DNA of 64,000 nt from assembly GCF_003790525.1 (NCBI RefSeq), contig NZ_CP033635.1; one strand, given 5' to 3'. Shown here in pieces: positions 14,237-14,746 of the stretch. A program made the translations under genes and the position numbers. Positions within the stretch are counted from its first letter, which is position 1. Every line of letters begins with the position of its first letter. The notes beneath the pieces are model-generated. The model saw only the letters and a program-made list of their open reading frames with translations. It searched no databases and was not told where the DNA came from. The DNA is from Escherichia coli (GTDB taxonomy: Bacteria > Pseudomonadota > Gammaproteobacteria > Enterobacterales > Enterobacteriaceae).

Positions 14237-14712
14237 AATCTCCCCTCAAAAAAAACGTATAGCAAATAATATCAATAAGGAAAAATATTATTTTTCAATG
14301 TTTTTTTGTATACAATTCATTTTATGAATGAATTTACAAAGATAGCTGCGCCTGATACCGCTACACTTTTGCCAGACCATGTTCTCCTCTGAGGGAGTAA
14401 CTGGCGCTTTTCATAGAATGCCGTACTTTTTTCAACAACTGCCACATCGAACGGCATTTATGGTGGCGTGAAGTGCCTGCCATAACCGCTCAATGTGGTG
14501 TTCCTACGATGAACAAACCGCTTGATATATTCTCCTGATGCAACCGGACAATATGTTCATGATGGGTATCCCGATACATAAGCCTTCGTTTTATTTTTAC
14601 AAAAAGAAATCGTTGTCGATATTTTATCAAGAAAAAAATAATTCAGGTAAAACGATTCAACTAAAAATAACTAAAATTAATCCCCCGTGAAATATATAAA
14701 TAACGTCAGATG

Positions 14713-14745
14713 AAGAAAGCAAGGGGGGCCCCCCCTTGCTTTCTT
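14713..14745. other. Perfect 16-bp GC-clamped palindrome at the insertion/araC junction
   Basis: aagaaagcaagggggg / ccccccttgctttctt immediately after the araC stop codon. Confidence 0.7.
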
Positions 14746-14746
14746 A

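What the first reader, a model, noticed from the sequence alone, without database searches (positions are those of the whole stretch)
14237..14746. Long AT-rich untranslated leader upstream of the 283-aa gene
Seen in sequence: ~510 bp without a convincing ORF, rich in A/T tracts (tttttcaatgtttttttgtatacaattcattttatgaatgaatttacaaag...), between the inserted gene's start and the araC junction palindrome. Inference: likely the module's own promoter and regulatory region and a probable H-NS binding region; it could also hide a small RNA or a short ORF below the 60-aa track cutoff.
Basis: inference. Interest (0 to 1): 0.35.

Follow-up and report, generated by a model that had tools for sequence, protein, structure and literature searches.

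The report
Scar of relics, not a leader
The 510-bp gene-free stretch is real, but it is a patchwork of leftovers (the araC terminator hairpin, the stump of a lost sugar-kinase operon, the tail of a dead IS630 insertion sequence) plus about 100 bp of the downstream gene's own short promoter region, so it is ordinary genome debris and not a long regulatory leader.

Summary
The window is an E. coli CE10-type chromosome (100% match). Positions 14237-14746 have no intact ORF and form the largest ORF-free gap in the window. Only two sub-blocks are AT-rich (20% and 25% GC). The middle is 44-48% GC.

The stretch has four unrelated pieces:
- 14713-14745: a strong bidirectional terminator hairpin right after the araC stop.
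- 14541-14711: a relic of the upstream region and first 13 codons of a DeoR-HTH/PfkB kinase gene. That gene heads a five-gene operon at this site in ST131-type strains.
- 14340-14539: the last ~200 bp of an ISEc33-like IS630-family element, with a decayed terminus, a frameshift and a stop. RefSeq already annotates it as a pseudogene.
- 14237-14339: the gene-proximal block.

In Citrobacter and Salmonella the same gene pair lies only 167 bp from araC. Five orthologues share a TTGnnn-17-TGnTATAAa promoter about 50 nt before the ATG. E. coli has a degraded version (TTTTCC-17-TGcTATACG) at the same position, which predicts a 5' UTR of about 15 nt.

No Rfam family, conserved small ORF or above-chance promoter was found. 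H-NS binding is plausible but untested. The finding is ordinary and of low interest.

The parts
14713..14745 (.). Perfect 16-bp-arm palindrome AAGAAAGCAAGGGGGG-C-CCCCCCTTGCTTTCTT, right after the araC stop. It is a bidirectional terminator-like hairpin: a GC core flanked by an A-rich and a U-rich arm.
   Evidence: the repeat finder I7. Terminator scan hits on both strands. RNA fold -28.8 kcal/mol, z -5.2, 0 of 200 shuffles as stable. Nissle-type and ST131-type versions are imperfect (-22.3 and -11.8 kcal/mol). Citrobacter and Salmonella have unrelated hairpins at the same place.
14580..14711 (-). Relic of the upstream (promoter/5'-UTR) region of a DeoR-HTH/PfkB kinase operon, 25% GC. Contains an extended -10-like TGATAAAAT at 14629->14621.
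   Evidence: 81% identical to the araC-proximal end of the five-gene island of ST131-type strains, with 7-, 26- and 23-bp gaps. PWM score 9.3, not above shuffled sequence.
14541..14579 (-). First 13 codons (MYRDTHHEHIVRL) of the DeoR-HTH/PfkB kinase gene, then truncated. The start codon now opens a 29-aa chimeric ORF that ends at 14490.
   Evidence: DNA alignment to L006. The ST131 protein starts MYRDTRREYIVRL. The ST131 protein has HTH_DeoR and PfkB domains.
14340..14539 (-). 3'-terminal ~200 bp of an ISEc33-like IS630-family insertion sequence. It covers the last ~63 transposase codons (13-bp deletion, frameshift, in-frame stop) and a decayed terminus (CAA|AGATAGCTGCGCC against CTA|AATAGCTGCGCC in intact copies).
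   Evidence: RefSeq pseudogene at 14361-14500. blastn 73-81% identity to intact copies. Alignment. tblastn E 8e-18 to transposase residues 281-343, in two frames. Termini defined from three ISEc33 copies.
14237..14339 (-). Gene-proximal AT-rich block (20% GC). Predicted degraded native promoter: -35 TTTTCC 14284->14279, 17-nt spacer, TGc 14264->14262, -10 TATACG 14261->14256. SD GAGGGGAG 14247->14240. Dyad AATTCATT-N5-AATGAATT at 14314-14334.
   Evidence: The same motif layout lies at -48 to -54 from the ATG in five orthologues and at -51 here. Overall similarity to orthologue upstream regions is significant only against Salmonella L011 (z 4.2).
13385..14236 (-). 283-aa gene (282 aa from the ATG at 14233), a DUF4056-related protein. 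It is the gene the 'leader' precedes.
   Evidence: 307 homologues. Invariant G27...H33 and S133xxS136xxD139 fit the CapCone-DUF4056 motifs described in PMC12419801. hcp lies directly upstream in 9 of 80 related loci and close by on the opposite strand in a tenth.
12956..13378 (-). 140-aa partner gene with an N-terminal transmembrane helix (immunity-like).
   Evidence: ORF list. A comparable 137-143-aa ORF with an N-terminal hydrophobic helix follows the homologue in six of the seven related loci inspected.
14747..15592 (-). araC, 281-aa form ending ...RAGCE*. The hairpin above is its terminator.
   Evidence: RefSeq annotation. Comparison with K-12.
12888..12940 (-). Displaced K-12-type araC 3' end at the far side of the island. 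12917-12940 forms an imperfect direct repeat with 14743-14767.
   Evidence: BLAST against K-12: both island flanks map to the same 25 bp of K-12. Alignment.

Best explanation
The 510 bp are a composite scar between araC and an orphan two-gene cassette, not a purpose-built leader. Read on the minus strand from araC there are four parts. (1) A strong bidirectional terminator hairpin ends araC. (2) Next come ~170 bp of the upstream region and first 13 codons of a DeoR-HTH/PfkB kinase gene. In other E. coli lineages that gene heads a five-gene operon at this same site. (3) Next come the last ~200 bp of a dead IS630-family element, joined to the kinase stump by an illegitimate deletion. (4) Last come ~100 bp belonging to the 283-aa gene. 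That block carries a degraded extended -10 promoter about 50 nt before the ATG and a strong Shine-Dalgarno sequence, so the real 5' UTR is predicted to be about 15 nt. Shown: the four-part anatomy, and the short intergenic region with a positionally conserved promoter motif in orthologues. Inferred: that the degraded promoter is the main start site; that the orphaned kinase-operon promoter may add read-through transcripts, since no terminator lies between it and the gene; and that the AT-rich blocks are H-NS-silenced.
For: The window matches CE10 at 100%, and PGAP annotates an IS630 pseudogene inside the stretch. The IS relic is supported by blastn to intact ISEc33-like copies, an alignment that includes the terminal repeat, and tblastn E 8e-18 to the transposase C-terminus in two frames. 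The PfkB relic is 81% identical to the araC-proximal end of the ST131-type island, including the start codon and 13 codons. The hairpin folds at -28.8 kcal/mol, z -5.2, and is scored terminator-like on both strands. Orthologous pairs lie 167 bp from araC in Citrobacter and Salmonella, or about 140 bp from araD in Leclercia, Trabulsiella and Enterobacter. The motif TTGnnn-N17-TGnTATAAa lies at -48 to -54 in five orthologues, and the window has TTTTCC-N17-TGcTATACG at -51. No minus-strand terminator lies between 14711 and 14237. The gene pair and the whole leader are each found in 486 of 5426 complete genomes.
Against: No transcription data were available, so start sites are predictions. A PWM scan found no candidate above shuffled sequence: best score 9.3 against a shuffle median maximum of 9.6. 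The window's -10 lacks the key T at -7. Global similarity of the proximal block to orthologue upstream regions is not significant in four of five comparisons, so homology of that block rests on one short, positionally conserved motif. The relaxed pattern that finds that motif at -51 in the window was written after seeing the window's own variant, so it is not an independent test. No intermediate genome with an intact IS or operon next to the cassette was found, so the order of events is inferred.
Confidence: 0.85

Rival explanations
1. A true long leader by promoter capture. The orphaned kinase-operon promoter (extended -10 TGATAAAAT, 14629->14621) has lost its DeoR-type repressor gene. It now drives a transcript of about 380 nt across the kinase stump and the IS relic into the 283/140 pair.
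For: It is the best-scoring minus-strand promoter candidate in the stretch. No terminator lies between it and the gene. The native promoter looks degraded. The repressor-kinase gene is truncated after 13 codons.
Against: Its score is not above shuffles. A 26-bp deletion relative to the ST131 version removes the TTGCTT sequence that could serve as its -35 element. The homologous position is not the top candidate in ST131. No expression data exist.
Confidence: 0.2
2. The stretch hides a small RNA or a functional small protein.
For: The RNA fold of 14237-14711 (minus strand) is slightly more stable than shuffles, z -2.5. A 29-aa ORF retains the kinase gene's start codon and ribosome-binding site.
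Against: No Rfam match has E below 0.1, and all five matches are far below their gathering scores. The short ORFs are chimeras of relics. Indels of 7, 26 and 23 bp break the frames in the ST131-type homologue. The stretch occurs only with this island.
Confidence: 0.04
3. The stretch works mainly as an H-NS nucleation region that silences the low-GC cassette.
For: Blocks of 20% and 25% GC lie in an island of about 33% GC, within a 52.5% GC chromosome. Three 2-mismatch matches to TCGATAAATT fall in the 510 bp, against 88 in the whole 64-kb window.
Against: Composition alone explains the motif matches. No ChIP data were checked. This reading is compatible with the scar anatomy and does not replace it.
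Confidence: 0.5
4. The IS630 relic provides an outward-reading promoter for the 283-aa gene.
For: The IS end faces the gene 104 bp upstream of the start codon. TTGTAA lies at the junction.
Against: No -10 partner scores well. The IS terminus itself is decayed. Orthologues without the IS have a promoter closer to the gene.
Confidence: 0.07

Closest known systems
IS630-family insertion sequences (ISEc33-like)
   Same: Window 14340-14539 matches the 3' end of intact elements at 73-81% DNA identity. This covers the terminal repeat AATAGCTGCGCC and the last 63 codons of the DDE_3 transposase. The CTA|AATAGC layout fits insertion at CTAG with TA duplication, as seen in three ISEc33 copies.
   Different: Only about 200 of about 1150 bp remain. 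There is no left end and no intact transposase. It carries a 13-bp deletion, a frameshift, a stop and a mutated terminus. It is not close to any named element: at most 81% identity to the nearest intact copy found.
ST131-type araC-yabI island (DeoR-HTH/PfkB kinase, DHDPS-family enzyme, TctC, TctB, TctA)
   Same: It has the same junction with araC, a related hairpin, a homologous upstream region, and the same start codon and first 13 codons.
   Different: The window keeps only about 170 bp of it, with three deletions and 19% divergence. The adjoining araC differs by only 1-9 bases per 100 bp. The relic therefore probably descends from a foreign copy of that island and not from the ST131 allele.
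araC-[283/140 pair]-yabI arrangement of Citrobacter freundii and one Salmonella enterica
   Same: It has the same gene pair (about 70% protein identity), the same position, the same 281-aa AraC, a terminator hairpin after araC, and a promoter motif about 50 nt before the ATG.
   Different: The intergenic region there is 167 bp, with no IS relic and no kinase stump. Its promoter hexamers are close to consensus (for example TTGCAC-17-TATAAT).
Bidirectional intrinsic terminators between neighbouring genes
   Same: A GC-rich hairpin core flanked by an A-rich arm and a U-rich arm, scored on both strands.
   Different: The U-tract is interrupted (CUUUCUU) and lies within the extended stem. Termination efficiency was not measured.

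Membership tests
IS630-family insertion sequence | DDE_3 transposase with N-terminal HTH domains | tested here: not met
   Only residues ~281-343 are represented, in two frames with an in-frame stop. The intact relative has HTH and DDE_3 domains. This is a fragment, not an element.
IS630-family insertion sequence | Sequence homology to family members, including the terminal inverted repeat | tested here: met
   blastn 73-81% identity over about 200 bp. The terminus AGATAGCTGCGCC aligns with AATAGCTGCGCC of three ISEc33 copies. tblastn E 8e-18.
IS630-family insertion sequence | Two inverted ends flanked by a TA duplication at a CTAG-like target | tested here: not met
   Only one end is present. 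The flanking CTA now reads CAA. The other end was lost at the junction with the kinase stump near 14540.
Long 5' UTR / leader of the downstream operon | Transcription start far upstream, with a continuous transcript into the gene | not testable with these tools
   No transcript data. A Nissle 1917 dRNA-seq data set exists (PMC12226905), but no genome-wide start-site table was available.
Long 5' UTR / leader of the downstream operon | Leader conserved with the gene in orthologues | tested here: not met
   In the five promoter-bearing orthologous loci (L008, L011-L014) the gap from the upstream gene's stop codon to the ATG is about 140-167 bp, and only the last ~50 nt share a motif.
Sigma-70 promoter | -35 and -10 hexamers with 16-18 nt spacing, above chance | tested here: inconclusive
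   No candidate exceeds shuffles. A positionally conserved but degraded extended -10 motif lies at -51.
Intrinsic terminator | GC-rich hairpin followed by a U-rich tract | tested here: met
   Scan hits on both strands. Fold -28.8 kcal/mol, z -5.2. The U-tract is interrupted (CUUUCUU).
Known RNA families (Rfam 15) | Covariance-model match at or above the gathering score | tested here: not met
   The highest-scoring match is 27 bits against a gathering score of 62, and the lowest E-value among the five matches is 0.11.
H-NS-bound AT-rich horizontally acquired DNA | GC content well below the genome average | tested here: met
   36.7% overall, with blocks of 20% and 25%, against 52.5% for the window.
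H-NS-bound AT-rich horizontally acquired DNA | Measured H-NS occupancy | not testable with these tools
   No ChIP data for a strain carrying the island were found.
CapCone-DUF4056 Lipocone family (for the 283-aa gene downstream) | Glycine six residues before the active-site histidine, and an S/GxxSxx motif before a conserved aspartate (PMC12419801) | tested here: met
   G27 and H33, and S133, S136 and D139, are invariant in 31 sequences. The Pfam DUF4056 hit is only weak (E 0.15 here, 1.5e-4 for a Vibrio relative). Foldseek against the PDB gave no match.

The most novel reading that the evidence does not exclude
After an IS630-associated deletion removed the DeoR/PfkB operon, its orphaned promoter, now without a repressor, was captured. 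It became the working promoter of an orphan Hcp-type T6SS effector/immunity-like pair whose own promoter had decayed. In that case the 'scar' would be a functional long leader of about 380 nt.
Probability: 0.15. Interest if true: 0.3.

Novelty: already known. Interest (0 to 1): 0.1.

Why it matters
It matters little in itself. The result stops a patchwork of relics from being read as a regulatory leader or an sRNA locus. It also gives base-level boundaries for anyone who studies expression of the neighbouring DUF4056-type gene pair, or who engineers the araC-yabI site in B2/F-group strains such as Nissle 1917, UTI89 or CE10. The wider context may be of modest interest to people working on genome plasticity or orphan T6SS effector/immunity pairs. 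That context is a three-state hotspot at the araC 3' end, and a cassette flanked by a repeat of araC's last codons.

Tried and rejected
- **Rfam:** an E-value-mode search of 12700-15000 gave only chance-level matches.
- **Protein family libraries:** PADLOC and NCBIfam gave nothing for the two proteins. Pfam gave only a weak DUF4056 hit.
- **Promoter scans:** the consensus scan and my own PWM scan found no candidate above shuffled sequence. I therefore do not claim a mapped promoter.
- **Proximal block against orthologues:** global alignment was not significant in four of five comparisons. I kept only the argument from the positionally conserved motif.
- **H-NS motif:** counts for TCGATAAATT are explained by AT content.
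- **Repeats:** only short chance-like repeats turned up inside the island, apart from the palindrome.
- **Structure of the 283-aa protein:** the AlphaFold2 model has pLDDT 83. Foldseek against the PDB gave no match with E below 0.1, so solved structures do not confirm a TelC-like fold.
- **Literature:** searches for the locus and for protein accessions found nothing relevant. Searches for start-site data found a Nissle dRNA-seq study without a usable genome-wide table.
- **Rejected idea:** that the cassette is a defence system. There was no PADLOC hit, and the Hcp linkage points to a T6SS effector/immunity pair.
- **First attempt at the Nissle comparison:** it failed on exact-match anchors and was repeated with fixed coordinates.

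Full report
**Identity and setting.** The 510 bp are 100% identical to E. coli O7:K1 CE10 (NC_017646.1 78447-78956). The local gene order is:
- thiP, then thiQ
- yabI (12037-12801, minus strand)
- a low-GC block with a 140-aa ORF (12956-13378, minus) and a 283-aa ORF (13385-14236, minus)
- the 510-bp stretch
- araC (14747-15592, minus), then araBAD

**Check of the observation.**
- The quoted sequence is present at 14291-14341, and no ORF of 60 aa or more lies in the stretch.
- It is the largest ORF-free gap in the window: 510 bp against a median of 57 bp.
- GC content is 36.7% against 52.5% for the window, but it is not uniform. It runs 20% (14237-14336), 47.5% (14337-14540), 43.6% (14541-14579), 25% (14580-14711) and 57% (14712-14746).

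**Piece 1: hairpin, 14713-14745.**
- It is a perfect palindrome with 16-nt arms, placed directly after the araC stop codon.
- It folds at -28.8 kcal/mol (z -5.2) and scores as terminator-like on both strands.
- The Nissle-type allele differs at four positions and still folds at -22.3 kcal/mol. The ST131-type version is weak, at -11.8 kcal/mol.
- Citrobacter and Salmonella have unrelated hairpins at the same place.
- It is most simply the araC terminator.

**Piece 2: kinase-operon stump, 14541-14711.**
- A distant blastn search showed that 14541-14746 also matches about 580 E. coli genomes at about 81% identity, at the start of a 'PfkB family carbohydrate kinase' gene.
- In ST131-type strains araC and yabI are separated by five genes: a DeoR-HTH/PfkB kinase, a DHDPS-family enzyme, TctC, TctB and TctA.
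- The window keeps that island's araC-proximal end. This includes the upstream region (with 7-, 26- and 23-bp gaps), the ATG at 14579 and 13 codons: MYRDTHHEHIVRL against MYRDTRREYIVRL.
- The relic is 19% diverged from the ST131 version, while the adjoining araC differs by only 1-9 bases per 100 bp. It therefore probably descends from a foreign copy of that island.

**Piece 3: IS630 relic, 14340-14539.**
- RefSeq annotates an 'IS630 family transposase' pseudogene at window 14361-14500, described as frameshifted and missing its N-terminus.
- blastn against plasmids gives 73-81% identity over window ~14326-14539 to intact ISEc33-like elements.
- In those elements the match covers the last ~190 nt of the 343-aa transposase gene plus the terminal repeat.
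- tblastn aligns transposase residues 281-343 in two frames with an in-frame stop, E 8e-18.
- Three ISEc33 copies show termini of the form CTA|AATAGCTGCGC at both ends. The window reads CAA|AGATAGCTGCGCC, so the terminus has decayed.
- The relic is joined to the kinase stump near 14540, give or take 3 bp.

**Piece 4: gene-proximal block, 14237-14339.** The 283-aa protein has 307 homologues across Enterobacterales. The orthologous pair sits in two positions:
- Between araC (281 aa) and yabI in Citrobacter freundii and one Salmonella enterica, only 167 bp from the araC stop.
- About 140 bp downstream of the araD stop in Leclercia, Trabulsiella and Enterobacter sp. ENT03. In Buttiauxella an hcp gene lies between araD and the homologue.

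In the five loci without an hcp gene directly upstream (L008, L011-L014), a terminator hairpin is followed by about 100 AT-rich bp. A promoter-like motif lies at -48 to -54 from the ATG in the five orthologues:

| Locus | Motif |
|---|---|
| Orthologue | TTGTTT-17-TGcTATAAA |
| Orthologue | TTGCAC-17-CGaTATAAT |
| Orthologue | TTGTCG-17-TGaTATAAC |
| Orthologue | TTGTTT-17-TGtTATAAA |
| Orthologue | TTGTCG-17-TGcTATAAA |
| Window, at -51 | TTTTCC-17-TGcTATACG |

In the window the -35 hexamer is 14284->14279 and the -10 hexamer is 14261->14256. This is followed by the SD GAGGGGAG (14247->14240) and the start codon.

Two cautions apply. Global similarity of this block to orthologue upstream regions is significant only against Salmonella (z 4.2). 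No promoter candidate anywhere in the stretch beats shuffled sequence. The relaxed pattern that places the motif at -51 in the window was also written after seeing the window's variant, so the match there is not an independent test.

**Function.**
- The shown facts argue that the real 5' UTR is short, about 15 nt. About 400 of the 510 bp are unrelated debris plus the neighbour's terminator.
- The native promoter looks weakened: TTG has become TTT in the -35 hexamer, and the -7 T is lost from the -10 hexamer.
- In the Nissle-type allele the 283-aa gene itself is frameshifted. That allele matches the 95-99% identity class of 405 genomes. The frameshift is a deleted C at 14011, and RefSeq splits the gene in two.
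- Together these suggest a decaying locus.
- Read-through from the orphaned kinase-operon promoter remains possible. An extended -10 TGATAAAAT lies at 14629->14621, and no terminator lies downstream of it. However, a 26-bp deletion has removed the likely -35 element. I put this at about 0.2.
- H-NS binding is plausible from composition but untested.
- I found no evidence for an sRNA or a real small ORF.

**Context of the module.**
- The 283-aa family carries the motifs that PMC12419801 gives for CapCone-DUF4056 Lipocone domains: G27...H33 and S133xxS136xxD139, all invariant.
- In six of the seven related loci inspected, the homologue is followed by a 137-143-aa ORF with an N-terminal hydrophobic helix.
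- An hcp gene lies directly upstream in 9 of 80 related loci, and close by on the opposite strand in a tenth, Photorhabdus L071.
- PMC11669294 proposes a DUF4056 ORF as a candidate T6SS effector.
- The pair is therefore most likely an orphan Hcp-type effector/immunity pair. This is an inference.
- Foldseek found no solved structural relative.

**Distribution.** The whole stretch and the gene pair are each found in 486 of 5426 complete E. coli genomes, always on the chromosome.

**Verdict.** The reading as a 'long leader' is not supported. The stretch is an ordinary mosaic of relics, already partly annotated, and of low interest.

Noticed in passing
window 12917-12940 and 14743-14767; L008 4818 and 6307: The island sits inside the araC 3' end and is flanked by an imperfect direct repeat of araC's last codons (about 19 of 25 bases). 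In Citrobacter freundii the same cassette is flanked by a perfect 17-bp repeat, CGCTGGATGTGAATAAA. No recombinase gene lies in the cassette. How it inserted is unexplained.
   Followed up: partly
window 12888-12940 against K-12 (L003); alignment: The 11 extra C-terminal residues of K-12 AraC (292 aa against 281 aa) correspond to a TAA-to-GAA change at the ancestral stop codon. CE10-type strains carry both the 281-aa ending (attached to araC) and the displaced K-12-type ending.
   Followed up: partly
araC-yabI interval: window 12802-14746; L006 1683-7261: The site has at least three states in E. coli: empty (K-12), a five-gene DeoR/PfkB-DHDPS-TctCBA operon (about 580 genomes, including ST131), and the 283/140 cassette (486 genomes).
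   Followed up: partly
window 12956-14236; L015, L017, L016, L018, L071: The 283/140 pair looks like an orphan Hcp-linked T6SS effector/immunity pair of the CapCone-DUF4056 Lipocone type. In several genera it lies after araD instead of after araC, and in Buttiauxella an hcp gene lies between araD and the homologue.
   Followed up: partly
window 14011 (L092 1650-2497): In Nissle 1917 a single-C deletion frameshifts the 283-aa gene, while the 140-aa gene stays intact. This fits loss of the effector with retention of immunity. Truncated 202-aa and 177-aa forms are common in the protein database.
   Followed up: partly
window 14314-14334: A perfect 8-bp inverted repeat, AATTCATT-N5-AATGAATT, lies 3 bp from the IS insertion point and about 30 bp upstream of the predicted -35 element. 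Part of it (AATTCAT) aligns with the Salmonella orthologue's upstream region. It could be a regulator binding site.
   Followed up: no
window 14490-14579 (minus strand): A 29-aa chimeric ORF (MYRDTHHEHIVRLHQENISSGLFIVGTPH) keeps the kinase gene's start codon and AAGG ribosome-binding site, and runs into out-of-frame IS sequence. It is probably meaningless.
   Followed up: no
window 59703-60156, 56272-56699, 43523-43931: These are the other unusually long ORF-free gaps in the window (454, 428 and 409 bp). They were not examined.
   Followed up: no
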